DNA of 64,000 nucleotides from Clostridia bacterium (GCA_017532825.1 JAFXIT010000056.1:6024-70023); one strand, 5' to 3'. Shown: positions 2 to 18,301, counted from the stretch's first letter. The notes: generated by a model not told the origin, from the letters alone. Translations and numbers: made by a program.

Positions 2-1573
2 GGAGCAACAAGCATAGGTGATGTGGCGTTCCGTGACTGCACCGGGCTGACAAACGTAACCATACCGGACGGCGTGGCGAGTATTGGCATGGACGCGTTC
101 TGCCGCTGCAGTAGCTTGACAGAGATAATTATGCCAAGTAGCGTAACAAGAATAGGCAATGGTGCATTTATGGACTGTACCGGATTGACAAGCGCAACGG
201 TATCGGGGAACATAGGTAATGGTGCATTTATGAACTGTACCGCTATGACGAGTATAACGATGCATGATAGTGTAACGAGCATTGGTTTTAATGCATTCTC
301 CGATTGCAGTAGCCTTACAGAAATAGTTATGCCAAGTAGCGTTACCAATATCGACTATCAGGCATTCTTCGGTTGTATTGGTTTGAAGAGTGCAACGATA
401 TCGTGCAACGTAGGTGCTGAAGCGTTTGGGGGTTGCACCGGGTTGACAAACGTAACGATACTTGACGGAGTAACAAGCATAGGCAATATGGCGTTCTGGG
501 GCTGCAGCAGCTTGGCGAGTATAACCATCCCTGATAGCGTGACTAGCATAGGTGGTAACGCATTCTCCGGTTGTAGCAGTTTGAGAGAGATAACTATACC
601 GTGCAACGTGGGTGCTGAAGGGTTTGCCGGTTTGACCGGCTTGACAAGTGTAACCATCTTGGACGGAGTAACCAGTATAGGTTGGGGTGCGTTTGCTGGA
701 TGCAGCAACCTTACAGAGATAATTATACCAAGCAGTGTTAAAAGCATCGGCGACGGCGCATTTCGCCGCTGCAGCAGTCTTACAGAGATAACCATACCGA
801 GCAGCGTTACGAGTATGGGCAGCGGTATGCTTGCTGAATGTGCCTCTTTGACAAAAGTAACAATACAGGGACGTATAACAAGTATAGGCAAGGATGCGTT
901 CAATGATTGCATTGACCTGACAGATATAACCATCCCGGACAGTGTAACCGATATAGGTTGGGGTGCGTTTGCTGGATGCACCGGACTGACAAGCATAAAT
1001 ATTCCGGGCAGCGTTACGAGTATAGGCAAGGAAGCGTTCTCCGGTTGCAGTAGCCTAACGAGTATAACAATACCGAGCAGTGTAACAAGCATAGGCGGTG
1101 GTACATTCTTCGGTTGTAGCGGCTTGACAAGCATAACAATACCTAACAGCGTGACAAGTATAGGTGATTATGCGTTTAACGGTTGCAACGGACTGACAAG
1201 TGTAACCATACCGGATAGTGTAACAAGCATCGGCAGGGGGGCGTTTAGAAATTGCTCCGGTCTAAATAGCATAACTATTCCCAGCGGTGCAACGAGTATG
1301 GAGGGTCAGGTGTTCGAAGGCTGCAGCGGGCTGACAAGTATAACCATACCTGACAGTGCGGCGAGCATAGGTGAATATGCGTTCTCCGGTTGCAGCGGAC
1401 TGACGAGTGTAACCATACCCGACAGCGTAACAAGCATAGGTGAGGGTGCGTTTGTAAACTGCGGCAGTCTGGAAACGGTTTACTACAACGGCACCGAGGA
1501 GGATTGGGCGAAAGTCTCTGTAGGAGGTTACAACACCGATCTGACCGACAATCTCATTTTCGTGACTCCGTAA
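2..1573 (+). CDS. BspA-type leucine-rich-repeat surface protein, 5' end outside window
   Basis: The frame is open from position 2. It carries more than 20 tandem ~23-aa repeats of the form SVTSIGxxAFxGCxxLTSITIP (BspA/LRR_5-like). It ends ...IFVTP* at 1573. Confidence 0.7.
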   Translation, partial: GATSIGDVAFRDCTGLTNVTIPDGVASIGMDAFCRCSSLTEIIMPSSVTRIGNGAFMDCTGLTSATVSGNIGNGAFMNCTAMTSITMHDSVTSIGFNAFSDCSSLTEIVMPSSVTNIDYQAFFGCIGLKSATISCNVGAEAFGGCTGLTNVTILDGVTSIGNMAFWGCSSLASITIPDSVTSIGGNAFSGCSSLREITIPCNVGAEGFAGLTGLTSVTILDGVTSIGWGAFAGCSNLTEIIIPSSVKSIGDGAFRRCSSLTEITIPSSVTSMGSGMLAECASLTKVTIQGRITSIGKDAFNDCIDLTDITIPDSVTDIGWGAFAGCTGLTSINIPGSVTSIGKEAFSGCSSLTSITIPSSVTSIGGGTFFGCSGLTSITIPNSVTSIGDYAFNGCNGLTSVTIPDSVTSIGRGAFRNCSGLNSITIPSGATSMEGQVFEGCSGLTSITIPDSAASIGEYAFSGCSGLTSVTIPDSVTSIGEGAFVNCGSLETVYYNGTEEDWAKVSVGGYNTDLTDNLIFVTP

Positions 1574-1587
1574 CTTCATACAAAAAG

Positions 1588-1612
1588 ACCGCAGGGCTGC
1601 TGCGGTCTTTTA
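1588..1612 (+). terminator. Rho-independent terminator after LRR gene 1
   Basis: Hairpin accgcag-ggctg-ctgcggt followed by the T-rich tract cttttaattt. Confidence 0.7.
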
Positions 1613-1617
1613 ATTTG

Positions 1618-1648
1618 TTGACTTTGCGGGGGGGGATAGTGGTATAAT
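1618..1648 (+). promoter_or_regulatory. sigma-A-type promoter
   Basis: -35 TTGACT (1618-1623), 19-nt spacer, extended -10 TGgTATAAT (1640-1648). It lies upstream of the lipoprotein gene at 1698. Confidence 0.6.
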
Positions 1649-1697
1649 TATAAAAAAGATGCAAAAGACCTGCCTTCGGTGAAAAGGAGAAACGGAT

Positions 1698-2846
1698 ATG
1701 AAGGATAAAATCGGAATAAAAATATTAGCAGCTGTTTTTCTAATAGCTTGTTCATTGGTGTTGACCGCCTGCGGCGGTAATACCCCCGCACCGTCCGAGG
1801 ACGGTACAACTGCACCGCAGACTACTGTGCAGTCCGAGGACGGAACGTCCTCGAGCAGTTCCGTGACAACGGAACCTGCAACCACTGCACCGCAGACTAC
1901 CGCAGATCCCTGCGCAAATGGACATAGCTATAACTCGGTAGTTACCCCTCCGACCGACGAGGCACAAGGGTATACCACCCATACCTGCTCGGTCTGCGGC
2001 GACAGTTACGTTGATTCCTACGTTCCCGCTACCGCATCGCTCGGGCTTTCATACACGGTAAATGAGGATGGAAAGAGCTGTACGGTTATAGGAATGGGCA
2101 GCTGTACCGATACCGAGCTCATTATCGGCCAACGGATAGACGGATATACTGTAACGGGAATAGGTAGCCATGCATTTTACAGAAAAAGCTTGACGGGTTT
2201 AACCGTGTCGGGAAGTGTGGAAAGTATTGGCAATGGGGCGTTTGAAGATTGCAAAGAGCTCAAAAGCGTCAGACTGTGTCAAGGGGTAAAGAGTATAGAC
2301 AGTCGTGCTTTTCTCCGATGCACCGCATTGACAGGTGTAGAGCTTTCTGACGGTTTAACGACTATTGAAAAACTTGCCTTTGACAGATGTACCGCCTTGA
2401 CCGAGATCACTATCCCGGGCAGCGTGGTAAGTATAGGCGATTGGGCTTTTTCCGATTGTACCGCCTTGACAAGCGTAACCATTACAGAGGGTGTCAAGAG
2501 AATTGGAGAGGGTGCATTTACCGGGTGTGATGCGCTGACGAATATTACCGTCCCCGGAAGCATTACAAGCGTATACGTAGGTGTGTTTTCAAACTGCGAT
2601 TCCATTACAAGTGTGACCTTGGAGGACGGAGTGAAAACTATTTCAGCTCGGGCGTTCTACGGCTGTCGTGCTCTGACGGAGATAACGATTCCGAGCAGCG
2701 TTACTGCCATAGGCTCACGTGCGTTTTTTAACTGTGATTCGTTTGGGACGGTATATTATTACGGAAGCCTCGAGGCCTTTACGAGAATAAACGTCGGAGA
2801 ATATAACCCTGACCTTCTATCAAAGGTCGTATGCGTGACACCGTAA
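1698..2846 (+). CDS. lipoprotein with BspA-type leucine-rich repeats
   Basis: N-terminal signal peptide with a lipobox (LVLTAC), a Ser/Thr/Pro-rich linker, then LRR_5-like repeats. It ends ...VCVTP*, like gene 1. Confidence 0.7.
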   Translation: MKDKIGIKILAAVFLIACSLVLTACGGNTPAPSEDGTTAPQTTVQSEDGTSSSSSVTTEPATTAPQTTADPCANGHSYNSVVTPPTDEAQGYTTHTCSVCGDSYVDSYVPATASLGLSYTVNEDGKSCTVIGMGSCTDTELIIGQRIDGYTVTGIGSHAFYRKSLTGLTVSGSVESIGNGAFEDCKELKSVRLCQGVKSIDSRAFLRCTALTGVELSDGLTTIEKLAFDRCTALTEITIPGSVVSIGDWAFSDCTALTSVTITEGVKRIGEGAFTGCDALTNITVPGSITSVYVGVFSNCDSITSVTLEDGVKTISARAFYGCRALTEITIPSSVTAIGSRAFFNCDSFGTVYYYGSLEAFTRINVGEYNPDLLSKVVCVTP

Positions 2847-9834: not shown

Positions 9835-9856
9835 ATTGCGTAAACAGGTAAAAAAG

Positions 9857-11104
9857 ATGAAAAAGTACGGATGCATCGGCAAAAAGCTGACCCACAGCTT
9901 CTCAAAGGAGATCCATGCAAGGCTTGTCGACTACGAATATGAGCTGATCGAGCTTGACGAGGACGAGATAGCGGACTTCTTTGAAAAACGGGATTTCGAG
10001 GCCATAAACGTGACCATTCCCTATAAGCAGACCGTTATGGCCTATCTCGACGGTATAAGCGATATCGCAGGGCGCATAGGCGCAGTCAACACCATCGTCA
10101 ATAAAGAGGGCAGACTTTACGGATACAATACCGACTACTACGGTATGAAGGCGCTTATCGCCCGTGTGGGTCTGGAGCTTGAGGGCAAAAAGGTACTGGT
10201 GCTTGGCACCGGCGGAACAAGCAAGACCGCGCGTGTCGTTGCCGCCGACATGGGTGCCTCCGAGATACTTACGGTAAGCAGAAGAAAGACCGACGAATAT
10301 ATCACCTATGAGGAGGCGGTCGGGCTTCACTCGGATGCCGAGGTCATCATCAATACCACCCCCTCGGGGATGTATCCCGACTGCGGCTCACGGCCGATAG
10401 ACATATCCGCCTTTGACCGTCTTGAAGGCGTGATAGATGCAGTGTATAACCCCCTTCGCACCAACCTCGTGATGGATGCGAGGGAAAGAGGGATCAAGGC
10501 CGAGGGCGGACTGTATATGCTCGTTATGCAGGCAGTGGTAGCCGTGGAAAAATTCCTCGGCATCGAGATAGAAAAAAAGGTCGCCGACGGCGTTTTTGCG
10601 TCCGTTCTTGCATCAAAGGAGAATATAGTCCTGACGGGTATGCCGGGAAGCGGAAAAAGTACCGTCGGAAGGCTGCTCAAGCTCGATGGCTACGGCTTTG
10701 TCGACACCGACGAGGAGATAGAAAAGCGCTGCGGCTGTACCATAAGAGAGCTCATCGAGACCAAGGGCGAAGAATACTTCCGTGAGCTTGAGTCGGAGGT
10801 GATAGAGGATCTGTCTGCACACAGCTCCTGCGTCATCTCCACGGGCGGCGGTGCGGTCTTGAGAGAGCAAAACGTAAGGAGCCTTAGGCGAAACGGCAGA
10901 ATATTTTTTATCAACGCAGAGCTTTCAAGGCTTCGTGCCACCTCCTCCCGTCCGCTGTCGGATACGGAGGACAAGCTTGCAAGACTGTATGCCCAAAGAC
11001 TTGGTATATATAAAATGACCGCCGATGCGGTCGTCCCCGATATGGAGACAGCTATGGCGGAGGCAGAGTACATTTTAGCAAAACGGACGGAGCTGATAGT
11101 GTGA
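9857..11104 (+). CDS. aroE: fused shikimate dehydrogenase / shikimate kinase
   Basis: The N-terminal ~270 aa resemble AroE. The C-terminal part carries a Walker A motif (GMPGSGKSTVGRLL) and the rest of an AroK domain. Start taken at MKKYG. Confidence 0.75.
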   Translation: MKKYGCIGKKLTHSFSKEIHARLVDYEYELIELDEDEIADFFEKRDFEAINVTIPYKQTVMAYLDGISDIAGRIGAVNTIVNKEGRLYGYNTDYYGMKALIARVGLELEGKKVLVLGTGGTSKTARVVAADMGASEILTVSRRKTDEYITYEEAVGLHSDAEVIINTTPSGMYPDCGSRPIDISAFDRLEGVIDAVYNPLRTNLVMDARERGIKAEGGLYMLVMQAVVAVEKFLGIEIEKKVADGVFASVLASKENIVLTGMPGSGKSTVGRLLKLDGYGFVDTDEEIEKRCGCTIRELIETKGEEYFRELESEVIEDLSAHSSCVISTGGGAVLREQNVRSLRRNGRIFFINAELSRLRATSSRPLSDTEDKLARLYAQRLGIYKMTADAVVPDMETAMAEAEYILAKRTELIV

Positions 11105-12733: not shown

Positions 12734-13586
12734 TAGTAGACGTAAGCAAAAAAATACTCATCGTAGGCCTCGGTCTGTTGGGCGGAAGCTACGCCAAGGT
12801 GCTCAAGCGCTTTGGATTCCACATAAGCGCAGTTACCAAGGAGCAGAGCTCCATAGACTATGCCATCCGTGAGAATATAATAGACGAGGGCTCGACAGAG
12901 CCCGACCAAAGGCTTGTCGGTGAGGCGGATCTTGTGGTGTTTGCGCTCTATCCCCACGTCTTCGTGGAGTGGATAGAGCAGTACCAGGGACTGCTCAAGA
13001 GCGGTGCTCTCATTACCGACGTAACGGGTGTCAAGTCAGTATCGTATACCGTATCCAGGAGATGCTCCGCCCCGACGTGGAATTCATTGCGGCACACCCC
13101 ATGGCAGGCCGTGAGGTGTCGGGCGTTGAAAACAGCACCGATAAAATGTTCGTCGGCGCAAACTACATCGTAACGCCGACCGAGAAGAATACTCCCGAGG
13201 CCATACAGACCTGTGTGGAGCTTGGAAGACTGCTCGGCTTTTCCAACGTGATGACCCTATCTCCCGAGGAACACGACGAGATGATAGGCTTTCTTTCACA
13301 GCTTACCCACTGTATCGCAATTACGCTGATGACCTGCAACGACAAGGAGAACATGGAAAAGTTTACCGGTGACTCCTTTAGGGACCTTACCCGTATCGCG
13401 CGAATCAACGATGTGATGTGGAGCGAGCTGTTTGTGTCAAATAAGACGGCACTTTTGGAGCAGATGCAGCTGTTTATGGACAAGTTCGGCCAGCTCAAGA
13501 CGATGCTTGAGAACGAGGACATAGAGGGCATGAGAGAAATGATGCGCCATTCGACCCGCCGCAGGGCGCTGTTTGAAAAGAAGTAG
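12730..13586 (+). pseudogene. tyrA: prephenate dehydrogenase, disrupted by an apparent -1 frameshift near 13035-13050
   Basis: Two overlapping ORFs (12730-13173 and 12969-13586) together cover a TyrA-like protein. They are a Rossmann N-terminus (LIVGLGLLGGS…DVTGVKS) and, in the other frame, …FIAAHPMAGREVSG… and the C-terminal domain. Confidence 0.55.
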
Positions 13587-13587
13587 T

Positions 13588-14073
13588 ATGATACGCAGAG
13601 CTGAGAAAAAGGATATCCCAAGGCTCGGAGAGCTGCTTTCGCAGGTGGATCTTGTTCACCATAAGGGCAGGCCCGATATCTTTAAGATAGGCAGGAAGTA
13701 TTCCGATGAGGAGCTTTGGGAGCTGTTAGGCGACCAAACACGCCCCATCCTTGTCTACGCGGACGAAAACGACAGGGTAGAGGGGTACTGCTTTTGCATC
13801 CTCCAACAGCATATTGACAATTCGGTGCTGACCGATATAAAGACGCTCTATATTGACGATCTCTGCGTAGACGAGTGTCAGCGTGGGAAGCATATAGGCA
13901 AGAAGCTCTACCTTGCTGCGGTAGAGCTTGCAAAGGAAAGCGGATGCTACAACCTTACCCTGAACGTGTGGAGCTGTAACCCCGATGCGATGGGTTTTTA
14001 TCTGGCGCAGGGGCTTGTTGCGCAAAAGGTAGGAATGGAGCTTATACTTAACCAAGAAGAGTTACGGAGGTAA
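13588..14073 (+). CDS. GNAT family acetyltransferase
   Basis: ~161 aa GNAT pattern. ATG at 13588 immediately follows the tyrA stop. Confidence 0.55.
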   Translation: MIRRAEKKDIPRLGELLSQVDLVHHKGRPDIFKIGRKYSDEELWELLGDQTRPILVYADENDRVEGYCFCILQQHIDNSVLTDIKTLYIDDLCVDECQRGKHIGKKLYLAAVELAKESGCYNLTLNVWSCNPDAMGFYLAQGLVAQKVGMELILNQEELRR

Positions 14074-14076
14074 GAA

Positions 14077-15513
14077 ATGAAAAAGACCTACGTTACGTCA
14101 ATGCCCGATCATATAGGTGCCTTTCTGAGGGCAAGTAAATGCTTTTCGGCTCTCGGAATAAATATAACACGAGTAAGCTACAACAAGGCAGTTGACTCTA
14201 ACACCCTCTTTATTGATGCGGAGGGTACGCAAGAACAGCTGAGCAAGGCCGACGTTGAGCTTGAAAAGATCGGATACCTTCAAAACAATGCGAACAAAAC
14301 CAGTATCGTACTGATCGAGTTTTGCCTTGAGGACGTTCCGGGCAGTGTTACAAACGTCCTCAGCCTCATCAGTGATTTTAATTTTAATATTTCCTATATC
14401 AGCTCCCAGGAAAACGGTACCGACTATCAGCTCTTTAAAATGGGTCTGTACGTTGAGGACTTTGACAAGATATCCGAATTTCTCAAGGAGGCGGAAAAGC
14501 TCTGCAGGGTGCGGGTGATAGATTACAACCGTTCGGAAAAGGTGTACGACAACAGTATCTTCTACAACACCTACGTTATGGGTCTCTCCCAGACGATGGG
14601 ACTGTCGGAGGACGTCAGACGTGAGCTGTTGGTCCACGTTAACCTGGCCATGCAAACCCTTGACGAGCAGGGACTGTCGCCCTATCGTACCTTTGACAGC
14701 ATAAGTAAGTTTGCCGAGCTGCTTGGTGCATCCAAGGGAAATGCCTTCGTGCCCAGAATAAGCACCCACAAAATAACCGACAATACCGAGCTTACCCTCA
14801 TAGAGCCGCCCTGCGGCAGTAATACGATCATAATAAAAAGCAACGGCAGGGTGCTGTTTGTGGACTGCGGTTACGCCTGCTACAAGGACGAGATGCTTGA
14901 GGTCTATCAAAGGATCGTTCCCGATTTTGAAAATATCAGAAAGACCGTTTTGGTGACCCATGCCGACGTTGACCATTGCGGATTGCTTCCTTTGTTTGAC
15001 GAGGTCATAGCCAGCCGTAAAACGGCGAACTGTCTGAAAGAGGAGTATCTCGGAAACGGCGGGTACAGGGGAAAGAATCCCCTCCACAAGCCGTATGTAA
15101 ATATCTGCAAGACGCTTACCTCCTATAAAGCCGTAGACCCCAAAAAGGTCACGGTGTTGTGGGAAGACCGTGAGTGCTTGACAGAGCCTCTTACCCAGAT
15201 AGGCTTTTTTGACTTTGAGGAGCTGCATTTTGAGGTCTACGAGGGAAGGGGAGGACACCTGCCCGGAGAGATAGTGCTGATAGACTACGCAAAGCATATT
15301 GCGCTCACGGGTGATATTTACATCAACGTCCACGGCCTTACCCCGCAGCAGGCAGAGTATAATCGGTATGCGCCGATACTGATGACCTCGGTCGACACAG
15401 ACCCCGAGCTTTGCGCACAGGAAAGAAAAGCGATAATAGGTCGACTCGGCGTGGGCGACTGGCAGATATTCGGAGCACACGGGTTTAAAAAGGAGTATTC
15501 GGTAAAGATCTGA
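14077..15513 (+). CDS. tandem ACT domains fused to an MBL-fold (metallo-beta-lactamase-like) domain, function unknown
   Basis: The N-terminus has two ACT-like ligand-binding modules (…MPDHIGAFLRASKCFSALGINITRV…; …VPGSVTNVLSLISDFNFNISYI…). The C-terminus carries MBL-fold signatures (THADVDH, GGH, TGD, GAHG). It is translationally coupled to the aro operon. Confidence 0.55.
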   Translation: MKKTYVTSMPDHIGAFLRASKCFSALGINITRVSYNKAVDSNTLFIDAEGTQEQLSKADVELEKIGYLQNNANKTSIVLIEFCLEDVPGSVTNVLSLISDFNFNISYISSQENGTDYQLFKMGLYVEDFDKISEFLKEAEKLCRVRVIDYNRSEKVYDNSIFYNTYVMGLSQTMGLSEDVRRELLVHVNLAMQTLDEQGLSPYRTFDSISKFAELLGASKGNAFVPRISTHKITDNTELTLIEPPCGSNTIIIKSNGRVLFVDCGYACYKDEMLEVYQRIVPDFENIRKTVLVTHADVDHCGLLPLFDEVIASRKTANCLKEEYLGNGGYRGKNPLHKPYVNICKTLTSYKAVDPKKVTVLWEDRECLTEPLTQIGFFDFEELHFEVYEGRGGHLPGEIVLIDYAKHIALTGDIYINVHGLTPQQAEYNRYAPILMTSVDTDPELCAQERKAIIGRLGVGDWQIFGAHGFKKEYSVKI

Positions 15514-15520
15514 TCGCTCT

Positions 15521-15549
15521 CCGAAAAAGTGAAAAATTTTTTCGGAGGC
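15521..15549 (+). terminator. terminator after the aro operon
   Basis: ctccgaaaaa-gtgaaaaat-tttttcggag hairpin. Confidence 0.5.
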
Positions 15550-15553
15550 TATT

Positions 15554-15582
15554 GACAAACCGATCTGATAGTGCTATCATAT
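15554..15582 (+). promoter_or_regulatory. sigma-A promoter of the T-box leader
   Basis: TTGACA (15554-15559), 17-nt spacer, TATCAT. Confidence 0.5.
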
Positions 15583-15589
15583 GTACAAA

Positions 15590-15868
15590 TTTGAATATCA
15601 CAAAAACGACTGTGACGAAGACGGTCGGATCGCAAAGCTTTACAGAGAGTTGTCGGTCGGTGCGAGACAACAGCGGAGCCTTCCAATGGCCTATCACTTC
15701 TGAGTCGGAGGACCGAAAGGCTTTGCCAAGTAGACTCCTTCCGTAATGCTGCGTAAAGGCAAAGAGCTTGTTAGAGCTCGGAAAGTGACGGAAATTTTCC
15801 GTAATTTGAGTGGTACCGCGGGTTAATAACTCGTCTCAAAGGATCTCTTTGAGACGGGTTTTTGTTTT
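15590..15868 (+). promoter_or_regulatory. T-box riboswitch leader (tRNA-sensing antitermination)
   Basis: AGAGA bulge and distal hairpin (gttgtc/gacaac). Stem III hairpin gacggaaattttccgt. Conserved T-box sequence AATTTGAGTGGTACCGCGG (15803-15822). Terminator cgtctcaaag-gatc-tctttgagacgg plus TTTTTGTTTT. The T-box 5' half (ttgag) can pair with the terminator 5' arm (ctcaa), which is the classic antiterminator arrangement. Confidence 0.8.
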
Positions 15869-15921
15869 ATTCAAATTGGTAACCATTAATTGATCGGTCG
15901 GAAATGAAAGGAGACAGAAAA

Positions 15922-18222
15922 ATGGATTACAGTTTGAAAGAGGTCGCAGTCAGAATAAAGGATCTGCGAGAGGCGAAGGGATATACCCAAGAGGAGCTTG
16001 CAAAGCTTACGGGTGTATCGGTCGAGGAGTACCGTGTTCTGGAGGAAGGAAACACCGACTTCAGCTTTACCTTTATCTACAAGTGCGCCAAGGCCTGCGA
16101 CGTTGAGGTAGTGGACATTCTTGAAGGTCGAAGCACGACTCTTACCTCGTTTGCCATCACCAGAAAGGGTGACGGACTTAAGATATTGAAGCAGCACGGC
16201 GTTGAATATAATAACTTAGCCCCCAAATTCAAGGAAAAGCTTGCCGAGCCCTTCCTTGTAAAATTTCCCTACCTCCCCGAGGAACAGAATGCTCCGCTGA
16301 AGCTCAACTCTCACAACGGTCAGGAGTTCGACGTAATAGTTAAGGGCTCACTTAAGGTGCAGGTCGGCAACCACGTGGACGTTCTCAACGAGGGTGACTC
16401 CATCTTCTATAACAGCCTTATACCTCACGGAATGATCGCCGTCAGCGAAGGCGGATGCGAATTCCATGCAGTAGTCCTCAACCCTCAGGACGGCCTTGTG
16501 AGCGAGGAATATCCCGAGGTCCCATACGTTGCGGCTAAAAGGGTCGAGAAGCAGGCTGACGTGGCGACCGTCGCCGATAACTTCGTTGAATCCTTCTACG
16601 ATGAAAAGGGCGTATTTAACGGCATCAAATTCAAAAACGACGACAAATTTAACTTTGCCTTCGACTGCGTCGACGCCATCGCCGAAAAGACCCCCGACAA
16701 GCTTGCGATGCTGTGGGTCGCAAACGACAAGACCGACCGCAGATTTACCTTCAACGACATGAAAAAATATTCCGCAAGGACCGCCAACTACTTTGAGTCC
16801 CTCGGAATACAAAAGGGCGACACCGTAATGCTCGTTTTGAAGCGCCACTACCAGTTCTGGTTCTGTATGCTTGCCCTTCACAAGATCGGCGCCATCGCTA
16901 TCCCTGCCACCAATCAGCTCGTTGAGCACGACTTCACCTACCGATACAGGGCCGCAAAGGTAAAGGCAATAGTCTGTACCGCCGACGGCGAGGTGTCGAC
17001 CGAGGCTGAAAAGGCTGCCGCAGAATTTCCCGATATGCTTAAGATACTGGTCGACGGAAAGAAGGAAGGCTGGCACGACTTCAATCTGGAGATGGAGCGC
17101 TTCAGCTCCAAGTACAGCCGCACCGAAAATACTCCCTGCGGCTCCGATCCGATGCTGATGCTCTTTACCTCGGGCACGACCGGATATCCCCGTATCGCCA
17201 CCCACTCCTATAAGTATGCTCTGGGACACTATCCCACTGCAAGGCATTGGCACAACGTCAAGCCCGACGGCCTGCACTTTACCATCTCTGATACCGGCTG
17301 GGGAAAGGCACTCTGGGGCAAGCTGTACGGACAGTGGCTCTGCGAGGCAGGGGTGTTTACCTATGACTTCGACAGATTCCATTCCGAAGACATACTGCCG
17401 ATGTTTGCAAAGTACAATATCACCACCTTCTGCGCACCTCCCACGATGTACCGCTTCTTTATCAAAGAGGACCTTTCAAAGTACGACCTCTCGTCGATAC
17501 AGTACGCAACTACTGCCGGTGAGGCGCTCAACCCCGAGGTGTTCAACCAGTTTAAGAAGGCTACCGGACTTACCATAATGGAGGGCTTCGGTCAGACCGA
17601 GACCACTCTTTCGATAGCAAACTTCGTCGGCTCAACCCCCAAGATCGGCTCTATGGGCAGACCCAGCCCCCTCTACGACGTCGTTGTTCTCGATCCCGAC
17701 GGCAACGAATGTCAGGTCGGCGATACGGGCGAGATCTGCATCCGCACCAAGGACGGCGCTCCCTGCGGTCTCTTTATCGGATATTACCTTGACGAGGAAA
17801 AGACAAACGAGGTCTGGCACGACGGCTTCTACCACACGGGCGACCAGGCGACCATGGACGAGGACGGATACCTTTGGTACGTCGGACGTATCGACGACGT
17901 CATCAAGTCCTCCGGCTACCGTATAGGACCCTTCGAGATCGAAAGTGTCATCATGGAGCTTCCTTACGTTCTTGAATGTGCCGTCACCCCCGTACCCGAC
18001 GAGGTCAGAGGCCAGATAGTAAAGGCTACCGTCGTTTTGGTAAAGGGTCAGAAGGGGTCCGACGAGCTCAAAAAGAATATCCAGGAATACGTCAAGACCC
18101 ATACCGCTCCCTACAAATATCCGAGAATAGTCGAATTTGTAGATGAGCTTCCAAAGACCATAAGCGGCAAGGTAAGACGTGTCGAGATACGCAAAAACGA
18201 CCTCAAAAATCTCCAAAAGTAA
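15922..18222 (+). CDS. XRE-HTH + cupin domain fused to an AMP-forming acyl-CoA synthetase (ACSM/Acs-like)
   Basis: The N-terminal ~200 aa are an HTH_3 domain (…LTQEELAKLTGVS…) followed by a cupin. The remaining ~570 aa are an AMP-binding enzyme (LFTSGTTGYPR, GFGQTET, GDxxxxDEDGYLWYVGRxDDVIKSSGYRI, …ISGKVRR). RBS AAGGAGA precedes ATG 15922. Confidence 0.7.
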   Translation: MDYSLKEVAVRIKDLREAKGYTQEELAKLTGVSVEEYRVLEEGNTDFSFTFIYKCAKACDVEVVDILEGRSTTLTSFAITRKGDGLKILKQHGVEYNNLAPKFKEKLAEPFLVKFPYLPEEQNAPLKLNSHNGQEFDVIVKGSLKVQVGNHVDVLNEGDSIFYNSLIPHGMIAVSEGGCEFHAVVLNPQDGLVSEEYPEVPYVAAKRVEKQADVATVADNFVESFYDEKGVFNGIKFKNDDKFNFAFDCVDAIAEKTPDKLAMLWVANDKTDRRFTFNDMKKYSARTANYFESLGIQKGDTVMLVLKRHYQFWFCMLALHKIGAIAIPATNQLVEHDFTYRYRAAKVKAIVCTADGEVSTEAEKAAAEFPDMLKILVDGKKEGWHDFNLEMERFSSKYSRTENTPCGSDPMLMLFTSGTTGYPRIATHSYKYALGHYPTARHWHNVKPDGLHFTISDTGWGKALWGKLYGQWLCEAGVFTYDFDRFHSEDILPMFAKYNITTFCAPPTMYRFFIKEDLSKYDLSSIQYATTAGEALNPEVFNQFKKATGLTIMEGFGQTETTLSIANFVGSTPKIGSMGRPSPLYDVVVLDPDGNECQVGDTGEICIRTKDGAPCGLFIGYYLDEEKTNEVWHDGFYHTGDQATMDEDGYLWYVGRIDDVIKSSGYRIGPFEIESVIMELPYVLECAVTPVPDEVRGQIVKATVVLVKGQKGSDELKKNIQEYVKTHTAPYKYPRIVEFVDELPKTISGKVRRVEIRKNDLKNLQK

Positions 18223-18266
18223 AAACCGAGTCCTTTTTCCGACACCGTTCGGTCGGCAAGGACAAA

Positions 18267-18301
18267 AGAAACCCCCGTCTGTTTTCATAACAGGCGGGGT
18301 T
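18267..18301. terminator. bidirectional terminator
   Basis: aaacccccgtctgtt-ttcat-aacaggcggggttt. Confidence 0.6.

What the first reader, a model, noticed from the sequence alone, without database searches (positions are those of the whole stretch)
15554..18222. T-box riboswitch controlling an HTH-cupin::acyl-CoA synthetase fusion protein
**T-box leader.** The region 15590-15868 has the canonical T-box sequence AATTTGAGTGGTACCGCGG, a stem III, an AGAGA bulge with a distal hairpin, and a terminator whose 5' arm is complementary to the T-box. The leader is unambiguous.

**Downstream gene.** The gene is not an aminoacyl-tRNA synthetase, amino-acid biosynthesis gene or transporter. It is a 766-aa fusion of an XRE-type HTH plus cupin sensor-like module to a full AMP-forming acyl-CoA synthetase (ACSM/Acs-like).

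**Why it is interesting.** T-box control of an adenylate-forming enzyme suggests it activates an amino acid, or an amino-acid-derived acid such as phenylacetate or a branched-chain acid. Its position directly after the aromatic operon makes the latter plausible. A DNA-binding domain fused to a ligase is itself unusual. I could not decode the specifier codon by eye.
Basis: partly seen in the sequence, partly recalled or inferred. Interest (0 to 1): 0.7.

Follow-up and report, generated by a model that had tools for sequence, protein, structure and literature searches.

The report
Isoleucine T-box gating a branched-acid ligase
An isoleucine-sensing T-box riboswitch controls a regulator-enzyme fusion that most likely activates 2-methylbutyrate so gut and rumen Clostridia can rebuild isoleucine from it, which gives candidate genes for a pathway known biochemically for decades.

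Summary
Both observations hold. Window 15603-15841 is a T-box leader (RF00230 E 2.4e-19, 85.9 bits, just below Rfam's gathering score of 93) with strong covariation. The ORF 15922-18222 is a real 766-aa XRE-HTH + cupin + AMP-forming acyl-CoA synthetase fusion, found in over 580 species-level genomes.

New here:
- The specifier is AUC (Ile, 15693-15695), invariant in 65 related leaders.
- The ligase is about 60% identical by eye (674 bits) to M. acetivorans MacsMa (PDB 3ETC), which prefers 2-methylbutyrate.
- Diverged paralogues carry either Ile (AUC) or Val (GUA/GUC) T-boxes, often as tandem units.
- The Val-associated proteins form one clade. They differ from the Ile type at a residue aligned with Acs pocket residue Val310: Gly461 (Ile type) versus Ala (Val type).
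- In related loci the fusion genes are followed by VorB-type 2-oxoacid:ferredoxin oxidoreductase subunits and IlvE.

Best reading: isoleucine starvation induces a 2-methylbutyrate:CoA ligase that feeds reductive carboxylation to isoleucine. This is inferred, not shown.

The aromatic-acid suggestion is not supported. The role of the HTH-cupin module is unresolved, since no operator was found. It is a new variant of known kinds and of moderate to high interest.

The parts
15552..15580 (+). Sigma-70-type promoter TTGACA-17 nt-TATCAT with a TG extension
   Evidence: 11/12 matches. TTGACA and TATAAT are conserved at this place in about 70 orthologous loci and in 45/53 divergent leaders.
15587..15601 (+). 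Clade-specific conserved 5' element AAATTTGAATATCAC, at or near the transcript start
   Evidence: Identical in 60 of 80 close loci, although the promoter spacer varies. Complementary to 15858-15877. Function unknown.
15603..15841 (+). T-box leader (RF00230 match)
   Evidence: 85.9 bits, E 2.4e-19, model 1-219/219. Covariation.
15608..15706 (+). Stem I: base helix GACT/AGTC with K-turn GTGAC, helix GAAG/CTTC, reduced specifier loop, AGAGA bulge (15644-15648), distal hairpin 15649-15671
   Evidence: All 20 modelled pairs show compensatory changes.
15693..15695 (+). Specifier codon AUC (Ile), followed by A15696
   Evidence: Placed by the Rfam alignment. Invariant in 65/65 close leaders while the flanking bases vary. 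The same column holds ATC, GTA or GTC in the diverse family.
15707..15802 (+). Stem II (15707-15741), IIA/B-like region, an extra hairpin (15764-15779) and Stem III (15788-15802)
   Evidence: RNAalifold consensus with covarying pairs. CM alignment.
15803..15838 (+). T-box sequence and antiterminator, with the UGGU bulge that pairs with the tRNA 3' end (ACCA)
   Evidence: alignment. AATTTGAGTGGTACCGCG is invariant in 65 leaders.
15828..15870 (+). Intrinsic terminator (15-pair stem, 3-nt loop) and U-tract, mutually exclusive with the antiterminator
   Evidence: Pairs are kept with one- and two-sided changes.
15858..15877 (+). Post-terminator segment GTTTTTGTTTTATTCAAATT, complementary to the 5' element
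   Evidence: Only A-to-G (G.U-compatible) variation. Not a family-wide feature.
15907..15913 (+). Ribosome-binding site AAAGGAG
   Evidence: Conserved GAAAGGAG 8 nt before the ATG in related loci.
15922..18222 (+). Gene for the 766-aa XRE-HTH + cupin + AMP-forming acyl-CoA synthetase fusion
15955..16113 (+). HTH_3 (XRE-type) domain, residues 12-64
   Evidence: Pfam HTH_3, 44.2 bits against a cut-off of 23. Mean identity 49% across the family.
16303..16473 (+). Cupin_2 domain, residues 128-184, with conserved H131, E135 and H169
   Evidence: Pfam Cupin_2, 33.5 bits against 27.2. Conservation. Weak whole-module match to PuuR and to PDB 1y9q.
16675..18171 (+). AMP-binding and AMP-binding_C (ligase) domains, residues 252-750
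   Evidence: PDB 3ETC, E about 1e-201, aligned end to end.
17302..17304 (+). Codon for Gly461 (motif SDTGW-G-K), the residue that separates Ile-type (Gly) from Val-type (Ala) paralogues
   Evidence: Aligns with E. coli Acs Val310. Four residues before the equivalent of MacsMa Trp259.
18230..18299 (.). Two hairpins after the stop codon (18230-18263 and 18273-18299), the likely end of the transcription unit and shared with the convergent genes
   Evidence: -35.4 kcal/mol, z -5.2. Not listed as a + strand terminator, because there is no long T-run.

Best explanation
The locus is a self-contained transcription unit: promoter, an isoleucine-specific T-box leader, one gene, and hairpins.

Proposed mechanism:
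1. When isoleucine is scarce, uncharged tRNA-Ile (anticodon GAU) pairs with the AUC specifier in Stem I. Its free 3' end pairs with the UGGU bulge.
2. This stabilises the antiterminator over the terminator at 15828-15870, so the gene is transcribed.
3. The C-terminal 540 residues of the product form a MacsMa-type short/medium-chain AMP-forming acyl-CoA synthetase. It most likely converts 2-methylbutyrate, which is abundant in rumen and gut contents, into 2-methylbutyryl-CoA.
4. A VorB-type 2-oxoacid:ferredoxin oxidoreductase then reductively carboxylates this to 2-oxo-3-methylvalerate.
5. A branched-chain aminotransferase (IlvE) converts that to isoleucine.

A sister clade of the same fusion protein sits behind valine T-boxes and would do the same with isobutyrate. 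A Gly-to-Ala change at pocket position 461 fits the substrate being one carbon smaller.

The N-terminal XRE-HTH + cupin module is conserved and probably adds a second, protein-level control. The options are ligand sensing by the cupin with DNA binding (auto- or local repression), or allosteric control of the ligase.

Shown here: the RNA architecture and its covariation, the specifier identity, the domain architecture, the homology, the link between paralogue and specifier, and the gene neighbourhoods.

Inferred: tRNA-dependent read-through, the substrate, the direction of the pathway, and any role of the HTH-cupin module.
For: T-box:
- RF00230, E 2.4e-19.
- Promoter and terminator.
- Covariation.
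- AUC is invariant in 65/65 close leaders.

Enzyme:
- Best PDB relative is 3ETC, at 674 bits over the whole ligase.
- 3ETC is MacsMa, whose preferred substrate is 2-methylbutyrate (PMC10455477).
- Best NCBIfam family is MbcS, the 2-methylbutyrate/isobutyrate-CoA synthetase (PMC10026030).
- Gly557 replaces Acs Trp414, as in medium-chain enzymes.
- W465 corresponds to MacsMa Trp259.

Specifier tracks paralogue:
- The model-aligned specifier column reads ATC 40, GTA 13, GTC 10.
- Every one of these leaders precedes a fusion-type ORF.
- All 20 Val-type proteins form one pure clade, and nearest-neighbour concordance is 57/57.
- Residue 461 is Gly in 37/37 Ile-type and Ala in 20/20 Val-type proteins.
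- It aligns with Acs Val310.
- MacsMa has Gly at this position.

Pathway context:
- The fusion genes are followed co-directionally by VorB (548.7 bits against a cut-off of 399) plus beta and gamma subunits, in 7-10 loci.
- IlvE (458-478 bits against 307) follows in 4 loci.
- A class I/II aminotransferase follows in L085.
- Leu T-boxes in the same loci precede LeuA-like genes, which shows that the specifier read-out behaves as expected.

Biochemical precedent: reductive carboxylation of 2-methylbutyrate as a route to isoleucine in rumen organisms (PMC2812497).

Habitat: the closest loci are ruminant and animal gut MAGs.
Against: - No experiment was done. Neither the substrate preference nor the direction of the pathway is shown.
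- In the window itself the gene is monocistronic, and no VOR or IlvE gene lies within the 64 kb. The pathway context comes from relatives at 55-62% identity.
- The NCBIfam MbcS equivalog cut-off is not reached (449 against 850).
- The leader lacks the canonical S-turn and scores below Rfam's gathering threshold.
- About 30% of fusion genes in the metagenome sample have no T-box.
- That Acs Val310 lines the acetate pocket is recalled from the literature. I could not confirm it in a held text.
- VOR/IlvE neighbours occur in a minority of loci: POR_N in 5 of 140 deduplicated neighbours.
- The explanation does not say why a DNA-binding module is fused to the enzyme.
Confidence: 0.7

Rival explanations
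1. The ligase supplies branched-chain acyl-CoA primers for branched-chain (anteiso) fatty-acid synthesis, as MbcS does in Staphylococcus aureus, rather than for amino-acid synthesis. Ile starvation would also starve the cell of the 2-methylbutyryl-CoA normally made from Ile, so an Ile T-box could logically switch on scavenging of the acid for lipids.
For: - MbcS is the best NCBIfam match, and its role is primer supply (PMC10026030 and PMC11167679).
- The window gene is monocistronic, with no amino-acid pathway genes nearby.
Against: - Relatives are co-operonic with VorB-type oxidoreductase and IlvE or another aminotransferase. Those genes are needed to make amino acids, not primers.
- In every checked case, T-boxes control genes that raise the supply of the cognate charged tRNA (PMC2494555).
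- The MbcS cut-off is not met.
- The two uses are not mutually exclusive, because both draw on the same acyl-CoA.
Confidence: 0.15
2. The protein is first of all a transcription factor, a 'trigger enzyme' like BirA. The ligase domain makes or binds an acyl-adenylate or acyl-CoA, which acts as the signal that sets DNA binding by the XRE-HTH. The catalytic flux would be secondary.
For: - HTH_3 and Cupin_2 are above their Pfam cut-offs and under constraint: 49-55% identity against 23% for the linker.
- XRE-cupin factors are local dimeric repressors of neighbouring metabolic genes (PMC7901475).
- Two of the three residues that separate Ile-type from Val-type proteins lie in the HTH (position 50) and near the cupin (position 111).
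- A clade-specific, invariant 15-nt element sits just after the -10 box.
Against: - No family-wide operator or palindrome was found near the promoters, with or without T-boxes.
- The spacer palindrome in the window is not conserved.
- The ligase domain is the most conserved part (64-80% identity) and keeps the catalytic motifs of an active enzyme.
- The BirA analogy is from memory only.
Confidence: 0.12
3. The enzyme activates an aromatic acid (phenylacetate or similar) linked to the adjacent aromatic amino-acid operon, as the first reader suggested as one possibility.
For: The upstream genes are a complete shikimate/Phe/Tyr operon. Benzoate-CoA ligase families give weaker matches.
Against: - The specifier is an Ile codon, not Phe, Tyr or Trp.
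- The gene has its own promoter.
- Orthologues sit in other neighbourhoods.
- The closest characterised relatives use small branched acids.
- No aromatic specifier was seen among 63 fusion-linked leaders.
Confidence: 0.02
4. The specifier is misread, and the leader senses another tRNA using an overlapping triplet (UAU Tyr, CAU His, UCA Ser or CAC His).
For: The specifier loop is atypical (no AGUA/GAA S-turn), so the usual landmarks are missing.
Against: - The base before ATC varies (T or C) and the base after it varies (A, C or G), while ATC never changes in 65 leaders.
- Two independent covariance models put the codon in the same column.
- The sister clade has GTA or GTC in that column.
- Leu codons in the same column precede LeuA-like genes.
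Confidence: 0.02

Closest known systems
T-box riboswitch leaders (Rfam RF00230), in particular Ile-specific ones such as those upstream of ileS
   Same: K-turn at the base of Stem I, codon-bearing specifier loop, AGAGA bulge and distal loop, Stems II and III, conserved T-box sequence with a UGGN bulge, and competing terminator and antiterminator.
   Different: - The controlled gene is an acyl-CoA synthetase fusion. In relatives it is a ligase-VOR-IlvE operon. No such target appears in the two regulon surveys I could read, including their supplements.
- The specifier loop is reduced: 2 nt on the 5' side and Y-AUC-R on the 3' side, with no S-turn.
- All nine family leaders scored against RF00230 reached only 33-86 bits, below the gathering score of 93.
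MacsMa, the medium-chain acyl-CoA synthetase of Methanosarcina acetivorans (PDB 3ETC)
   Same: Aligned end to end at 674 bits, about 60% identity by eye. Gly in place of Acs Trp414. Trp259 equivalent present (W465). Gly at the position that is Gly in Ile-type paralogues. MacsMa prefers 2-methylbutyrate (PMC10455477).
   Different: MacsMa is a stand-alone archaeal enzyme with no HTH-cupin module and no T-box. Its physiological role is not tied to an amino-acid-sensing switch.
MbcS, the Staphylococcus aureus 2-methylbutyrate/isobutyrate-CoA synthetase (NCBIfam NF047394)
   Same: Best NCBIfam family. Same enzyme class and the same substrates as those proposed here.
   Different: Scores 449 bits against an equivalog cut-off of 850. 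MbcS serves fatty-acid primer supply and is not fused to a regulator.
XRE-cupin transcription factors (PuuR, ErfA, PsdR, PauR; structural template 1Y9Q)
   Same: Same two-domain order, HTH_3 then Cupin_2. Weak full-length matches to PuuR and 1y9q. Known members are local repressors of adjacent metabolic genes (PMC7901475).
   Different: Here the module is covalently fused to the enzyme it would be expected to regulate. No operator was found, and DNA binding is untested.
Reductive carboxylation route to branched-chain amino acids in rumen anaerobes (acid to acyl-CoA to 2-oxoacid via ferredoxin-dependent oxidoreductase to amino acid)
   Same: Related loci encode all three steps in one string behind Ile or Val T-boxes. 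The habitat matches. The route is cited for M. ruminantium (PMC2812497).
   Different: The route is known from labelling and nutrition studies. In the searchable literature I found no dedicated ligase gene or amino-acid-responsive regulation assigned to it.

Membership tests
T-box leader (RF00230) | Stem I with a K-turn (GA motif) at its base | tested here: met
   GACT-GTGAC-GAAG ... CTTC-TG-AGTC at 15608-15620 and 15697-15706. CM alignment. Helices covary.
T-box leader (RF00230) | Specifier loop that presents a codon, followed by a purine, at its 3' end | tested here: met
   AUC at 15693-15695, then A15696. Invariant codon in 65/65 leaders. In some relatives the following base is C.
T-box leader (RF00230) | S-turn (AGUA / GAA) in the specifier loop. 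This is common but not universal among T-boxes. | tested here: not met
   The Rfam alignment shows a 4-nt deletion at the AGUA box and GGCC in place of GAA. The 5' side of the loop is only AC.
T-box leader (RF00230) | Distal AGAGA bulge and distal loop, which form the platform for the tRNA elbow | tested here: met
   AGAGA at 15644-15648 and loop GGTCGGTGCGA at 15655-15665, matching the model's GgUUGGUGaaA. Invariant AGAGA.
T-box leader (RF00230) | Conserved T-box sequence with a UGGN bulge in an antiterminator that competes with a terminator | tested here: met
   AATTTGAGTGGTACCGCGG at 15803-15821. The terminator at 15828-15860 shares CTCGTCTCA with the antiterminator.
T-box leader (RF00230) | Score at or above Rfam's curated gathering threshold | tested here: not met
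   85.9 bits against 93. E is still 2.4e-19. This is a curation threshold, not a biological feature.
T-box leader (RF00230) | Read-through induced by the cognate uncharged tRNA | not testable with these tools
   Needs in-vitro transcription or reporter assays. The window contains no tRNA gene.
MacsMa-type / medium-chain AMP-forming acyl-CoA synthetases (ANL superfamily) | AMP-binding and AMP-binding_C domains, with the C-terminal catalytic PKTxSGK motif | tested here: met
   Pfam 201.8 and 80.5 bits. LPKTISGKVRR aligned with MacsMa.
MacsMa-type / medium-chain AMP-forming acyl-CoA synthetases (ANL superfamily) | Gly in place of the Acs pocket tryptophan (Trp414/416), and the alternative Trp (MacsMa Trp259) | tested here: met
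   G557 aligns with Acs W414. W465 corresponds to MacsMa W259 after a numbering offset of 23.
MacsMa-type / medium-chain AMP-forming acyl-CoA synthetases (ANL superfamily) | Preference for 2-methylbutyrate | not testable with these tools
   Needs enzyme kinetics. Inferred from homology and from the Ile specifier.
MbcS (NCBIfam NF047394 equivalog) | Score above the equivalog cut-off | tested here: not met
   449.3 bits against 850. So it is not filed as MbcS, only as a relative.
XRE-cupin transcription factors | N-terminal XRE-type HTH followed by a cupin domain | tested here: met
   HTH_3 at 44.2 bits (cut-off 23) and Cupin_2 at 33.5 bits (cut-off 27.2). PuuR profile covered 9-175 of 185, E 4.9e-4.
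XRE-cupin transcription factors | Stand-alone regulator of about 180-200 aa | tested here: not met
   The module is fused in frame to a 540-aa ligase in all family members examined.
XRE-cupin transcription factors | Palindromic operator in a nearby promoter, and specific DNA binding | tested here: inconclusive
   No family-wide motif apart from the promoter itself. There is a clade-specific invariant element at 15587-15601. Binding is not testable here.
Reductive-carboxylation pathway for branched-chain amino acids | Acid-activating enzyme, 2-oxoacid:ferredoxin oxidoreductase and aminotransferase encoded together | tested here: inconclusive
   Met in related loci, for example L123, L103, L091, L126, L127 and L104. 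Not met within the 64-kb window. The rest of the genome is not available.

The most novel reading that the evidence does not exclude
This would be a widespread family of two-layer 'sensor-enzymes' in gut and rumen Clostridia. A T-box reads tRNA-Ile or tRNA-Val charging at the RNA level. The fused XRE-cupin module of the same protein reads a small molecule (the branched acid, its CoA ester or the amino acid). It then either represses transcription, by binding DNA at or near its own leader, or gates the ligase allosterically. Paralogue specificity would be set jointly by the specifier codon, a Gly/Ala switch in the acyl pocket, and matching changes in the HTH and cupin (positions 50 and 111). 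The clade-specific inverted segments that bracket the riboswitch (15587-15601 and 15858-15877) could be the protein's operators, or an RNA clamp that forms only in read-through transcripts.
Probability: 0.3. Interest if true: 0.78.

Novelty: new variant of a known kind. Interest (0 to 1): 0.62.

Why it matters
Many rumen and gut anaerobes need or benefit from branched-chain volatile fatty acids. Labelling work decades ago showed that these acids are carboxylated into valine, leucine and isoleucine. In the literature I could search, no genes were assigned to the activation step and nothing was said about its regulation.

If the reading here is right, a very common and so far uncharacterised protein family ('AMP-binding protein' in MAG annotations) is the missing acid-activating enzyme. 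The T-box specifier gives a free prediction of which paralogue handles which acid: Ile for 2-methylbutyrate, Val for isobutyrate. A single Gly/Ala pocket position gives a testable basis for that specificity.

It also extends the T-box regulon to a salvage-type biosynthetic route. It shows that Rfam's gathering threshold misses the nine leaders of this group that I scored. And it raises a clear question about why a DNA-binding sensor module is fused to a metabolic enzyme that already sits behind a riboswitch.

Practical relevance: iso-acid feed supplementation, and metabolic models of fibre-degrading Clostridia.

Tried and rejected
1. Minus-strand genes downstream (601 aa + 185 aa) as IorA/IorB-type oxidoreductase. 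Rejected: they are UvrC, RsmD and CoaD.
2. The palindrome TGATAG-TG-CTATCA in the promoter spacer as the HTH operator. Rejected: it is not conserved in about 70 orthologous promoters.
3. A long-range RNA helix between the 5' end and the post-terminator segment as a general feature of the family. It is conserved in the window's clade, with only G.U-compatible changes. But there are no compensatory double changes, and it is absent in 53 divergent leaders (mean z -0.23, p 0.54). Left unexplained.
4. K-mer search for a shared operator upstream of Stem I. Only the promoter hexamers are enriched. T-box-less promoters gave nothing obvious either.
5. A first regex-based specifier caller had its helix offsets wrong. 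After the fix it still gave a few false calls (GGC, AGA, GAG, GAC). I replaced it with a covariance model of Stem I.
6. Looking for the window protein's exact sequence in public assemblies, to name the source organism. Not on record.
7. Literature confirmation that Acs Val310/Ile312 lines the acetate pocket, and the details of the MacsMa pocket. The key papers are not held and the MbcS paper has no pocket description.
8. The Vitreschak 2008 and MMBR 2009 T-box surveys are not held. Prior description of this target therefore cannot be fully excluded.
9. Structure prediction was considered and not run. The tools return no coordinates for measuring pocket distances. Only near-identical homologues could have been supplied as the alignment.

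Full report
**1. The observation**

The default Rfam search of the whole window at gathering thresholds returns nothing. A permissive search of 15480-15960 gives a full-length RF00230 T-box match at 15603-15841. It scores 85.9 bits with E 2.4e-19, against a gathering score of 93. It is the only RNA-family match in the window at E<=1e-3.
- T-box sequence at 15803-15821
- AGAGA at 15644-15648, with a distal hairpin
- Stem III at 15788-15802
- a 15-pair terminator at 15828-15860 followed by a T-run, whose 5' arm is the 3' strand of the antiterminator

A strong promoter (TTGACA-17-TATCAT, TG-extended) lies at 15552-15580. By direct reading it follows a hairpin after the stop codon of the upstream gene. 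The ORF carries HTH_3, Cupin_2, AMP-binding and AMP-binding_C in one frame.

**2. Is it more than chance?**

The fusion protein has thousands of close database relatives, all with the same four domains. It occurs in at least 582 species-level genomes. The 80 best are ruminant and animal gut MAGs of Oscillospiraceae, Acutalibacteraceae and related Clostridia.

The T-box motif and AGAGA box lie upstream in 72 of 73 loci with enough sequence. An alignment of 65 distinct leaders folds into Stem I, Stem II, a IIA/B-like region, an extra hairpin, Stem III and the terminator. In that fold, 21 pairs show compensatory double changes.

In a much more diverse set, a covariance model of Stem I built here finds 70 matches. 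On their alignment all 20 pairs covary, and 92% of cells pair against 70.7% in shuffles (0/500). The covariation score is 0.604, against at most 0.162 for slid registers. That alignment is fitted to the model, so it leans towards the structure. The independent MAFFT/RNAalifold result agrees.

**3. The specifier**

The Rfam alignment places the model's codon-plus-purine positions on AUC-A at 15693-15696. In 65 leaders ATC never changes. The base before it is T or C and the base after it is A, C or G. The flanking helices covary (GAAG:CTTC to GAGG:CCTC; GGTC:GACC to GGTT:AACC). The leader is therefore Ile-specific.

The loop is atypical. The AGUA box is deleted and GAA is replaced, leaving 2 nt on the 5' side, so there is no S-turn. 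This probably explains the sub-threshold Rfam score. The nine family leaders scored against RF00230 reached only 33-86 bits, some of them truncated at a locus edge.

**4. The enzyme**

The ligase part aligns end to end with PDB 3ETC (674 bits, E about 1e-201). 3ETC is MacsMa of Methanosarcina acetivorans, whose preferred substrate is 2-methylbutyrate (PMC10455477).

The best NCBIfam family is MbcS, the S. aureus 2-methylbutyrate/isobutyrate-CoA synthetase. The score is below the equivalog cut-off (449 against 850).

Against E. coli Acs, G557 replaces the pocket residue Trp414, as in medium-chain enzymes. After correcting for a 23-residue offset between chain and paper numbering, W465 is the equivalent of MacsMa Trp259. 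The paper calls that residue critical for substrate binding.

**5. Paralogues and specifiers**

At 50% clustering, full-length fusions exist down to 41% identity. Their loci show tandem units. In L086, a T-box with AUC precedes one fusion gene and a T-box with GUC precedes the next. In L085, an AUC T-box precedes two fusion-type genes and then an aminotransferase.

A metagenome scan gave 80 further loci. Read from the model-based alignment, the specifier column holds:

| Specifier | Amino acid | Leaders |
|---|---|---|
| ATC | Ile | 40 |
| GTA | Val | 13 |
| GTC | Val | 10 |
| CTC | Leu | 3 |
| CTG | Leu | 2 |
| ambiguous | - | 1 |

. Every Ile or Val leader precedes a fusion-type ORF. The Leu leaders precede LeuA-like genes, a classical target that serves as an internal control.

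Among 57 distinct full-length proteins, the 20 Val-associated ones form a single pure clade. All 57 have a nearest non-identical neighbour of the same specifier type.

Only three alignment positions separate the two types cleanly:
- position 50, in the HTH
- position 111, just before the cupin
- position 461, in the ligase: Gly in 37/37 Ile-type and Ala in 20/20 Val-type

A motif-based recount gives G in 23/23 Ile-type proteins, G in 80/80 of the window's clade, and A in 19/19 Val-type proteins. Position 461 aligns with Acs Val310 and lies four residues before the Trp259 equivalent. MacsMa has Gly there. From memory, Val310 is one of the four acetate-pocket residues of Acs. I could not confirm this in a held paper. 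One extra methyl group in the pocket of the Val type fits a substrate that is one carbon smaller (isobutyrate against 2-methylbutyrate). This step is inference.

**6. Genomic context**

In the window the gene stands alone. A complete shikimate/Phe/Tyr operon lies upstream. Convergent coaD, rsmD and uvrC lie downstream. Two hairpins follow the stop codon. No VOR or IlvE gene is present in the 64 kb.

In the diverse loci a conserved co-directional string follows the fusion gene(s):

| Gene | Evidence | Loci |
|---|---|---|
| ~225-aa protein of unknown function | weak CbiA/ParA match | 12 |
| VorB-type oxidoreductase alpha subunit | NF005507, 548.7 bits against 399 | 10 |
| beta subunit | TPP_enzyme_C | 7 |
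| gamma subunit | POR | 9 |
| IlvE, directly after the fusion | 458-478 bits against 307 | 4 |

In a batch scan of 140 deduplicated neighbours, the most frequent families were POR_N and PFOR_II. Aminotran_4 and Aminotran_1_2 were also among the top seven. Together with the ligase, this is the full route: acid to acyl-CoA to 2-oxoacid to amino acid. Reductive carboxylation of 2-methylbutyrate to isoleucine is the route proposed for rumen organisms (PMC2812497).

**7. Mechanism proposed**

Ile limitation leads to uncharged tRNA-Ile, which stabilises the antiterminator and allows transcription of the fusion gene. The ligase then makes 2-methylbutyryl-CoA, VOR carboxylates it reductively, IlvE transaminates the product, and Ile results. 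The sister clade does the same for Val from isobutyrate.

What is shown: the RNA anatomy, the specifier, the homology, the co-variation of paralogue and specifier, and the neighbourhoods. What is inferred: the tRNA response, the substrates, and the direction of the pathway.

The main rival is primer supply for branched-chain fatty acids (MbcS-like). It cannot be excluded for the monocistronic window gene. It does not explain the VOR-IlvE operons or the T-box logic.

**8. The HTH-cupin module**

It is under clear constraint: HTH 49% and cupin 55% mean identity, against 23% for the linker. It keeps a His131/Glu135/His169 triad. It resembles PuuR and PDB 1y9q weakly over its full length. Known XRE-cupin factors are local, dimeric repressors of neighbouring metabolic genes (PMC7901475). 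A gene fusion of such a repressor with its target is therefore a plausible origin.

I could not find its DNA site. Only the promoter hexamers are enriched upstream of Stem I. T-box-less promoters share nothing obvious. The spacer palindrome in the window is not conserved.

The window's clade has an invariant 15-nt element right after the -10 box (15587-15601; identical in 60 of 80 loci). It is complementary to the U-tract and the post-terminator segment (15858-15877). The pairing is kept with only G.U-compatible changes, but it is not found in divergent leaders. Whether this is an RNA clamp or a pair of DNA sites is open.

**9. Generality and limits**

In the metagenome sample, 59 of 86 fusion genes with enough upstream sequence have a T-box within 520 nt. 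The rest are second genes of an operon or have plain promoters.

No Leu-, Phe- or Trp-specific leader was found in front of a fusion gene.

The two T-box regulon surveys I could read, including their supplementary tables, list no acyl-CoA ligase or ferredoxin oxidoreductase targets. Two other key surveys are not held. Searches for gene-level work on branched-acid assimilation found nothing relevant. Prior description therefore cannot be excluded, but I did not find one.

**10. Verdict**

The T-box is a new member of a known class with an atypical specifier loop. The system as a whole is a new variant of known kinds: an Ile/Val T-box gating an XRE-cupin::branched-acid ligase, often with VOR and IlvE. 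It makes an old nutritional and biochemical question directly testable.

Noticed in passing
window 15587-15601 and 15858-15877: An invariant 5' element, AAATTTGAATATCAC, just after the -10 box is complementary to the terminator U-tract plus the next 10 nt. The pair is conserved in the window's clade with only A-to-G (wobble-compatible) changes. It is absent as a general feature of the family. It could be an RNA clamp on read-through transcripts or a pair of protein-binding DNA sites.
   Followed up: partly
L086 5832-11307; also L091, L095/L096, L100, L103, L116, L127, L137: Tandem units recur in a fixed order: T-box(Ile)-fusion, then T-box(Val)-fusion. Each unit has its own TTGACA promoter. 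L095 adds a third T-box (CTC, Leu) in front of a LeuA-like gene.
   Followed up: yes
L123 2786-3481; also L088, L090, L091, L103, L106, L107, L110, L120, L126, L127, L132: A conserved protein of about 222-234 aa sits between the fusion gene and VorB in 12 loci. Some copies have no Pfam or NCBIfam match and others only a weak CbiA/ParA P-loop match. It may be an accessory or maturation factor for the oxidoreductase.
   Followed up: partly
L085 3001-5277 (P0126): A diverged paralogue (41% identity) has cupin and ligase domains but no detectable HTH. It is encoded 73 nt after an Ile-T-box-controlled fusion gene and before a class I/II aminotransferase.
   Followed up: no
L086 1667-4150 (- strand): A different ligase fusion: an 827-aa AP_endonuc_2 (xylose-isomerase-like TIM barrel) + AMP-binding protein, next to a LeuA-like gene and divergent from the T-box units.
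   Followed up: no
window 15603-15841; L085 1-190; L081 and L083 1-102 and 2648-2903; L086 5832-6102 and 8648-8903: The nine leaders of this family scored against RF00230 reach 33-86 bits, below Rfam's gathering score of 93 (some are truncated at a locus edge). Standard annotation at that threshold would therefore miss them.
   Followed up: partly
window 14077-15513: The last gene of the aromatic operon encodes an ACT domain fused to a metallo-beta-lactamase-fold domain (478 aa), preceded by a GNAT acetyltransferase (13573-14073). Neither is a standard shikimate-pathway enzyme.
   Followed up: no
window 9836-11104: Shikimate dehydrogenase and shikimate kinase (AroE-AroK) are fused in one 422-aa ORF within the aromatic operon.
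   Followed up: no
window 23-2846: Two adjacent BspA-type leucine-rich-repeat proteins (LRR_5: 513 bits with 6 matched stretches, and 217 bits with 2 matched stretches).
   Followed up: no
window residues 50 and 111 of the fusion protein (codons 16069-16071 and 16252-16254): Besides pocket residue 461, the only positions that cleanly separate Ile-type from Val-type proteins lie in the HTH (T/S against A/G) and just before the cupin (Y/F/H against L). This hints that the regulatory module is also type-specific.
   Followed up: partly
L001-L080 (e.g. L059 2-1138, L074 8879-10264): In 17 of the 80 closest loci a LeuA-like gene lies within 4 kb of the fusion gene. In the window the upstream neighbour is the aromatic operon. 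So the gene's neighbourhood is not fixed even among 87-92% identical orthologues.
   Followed up: partly
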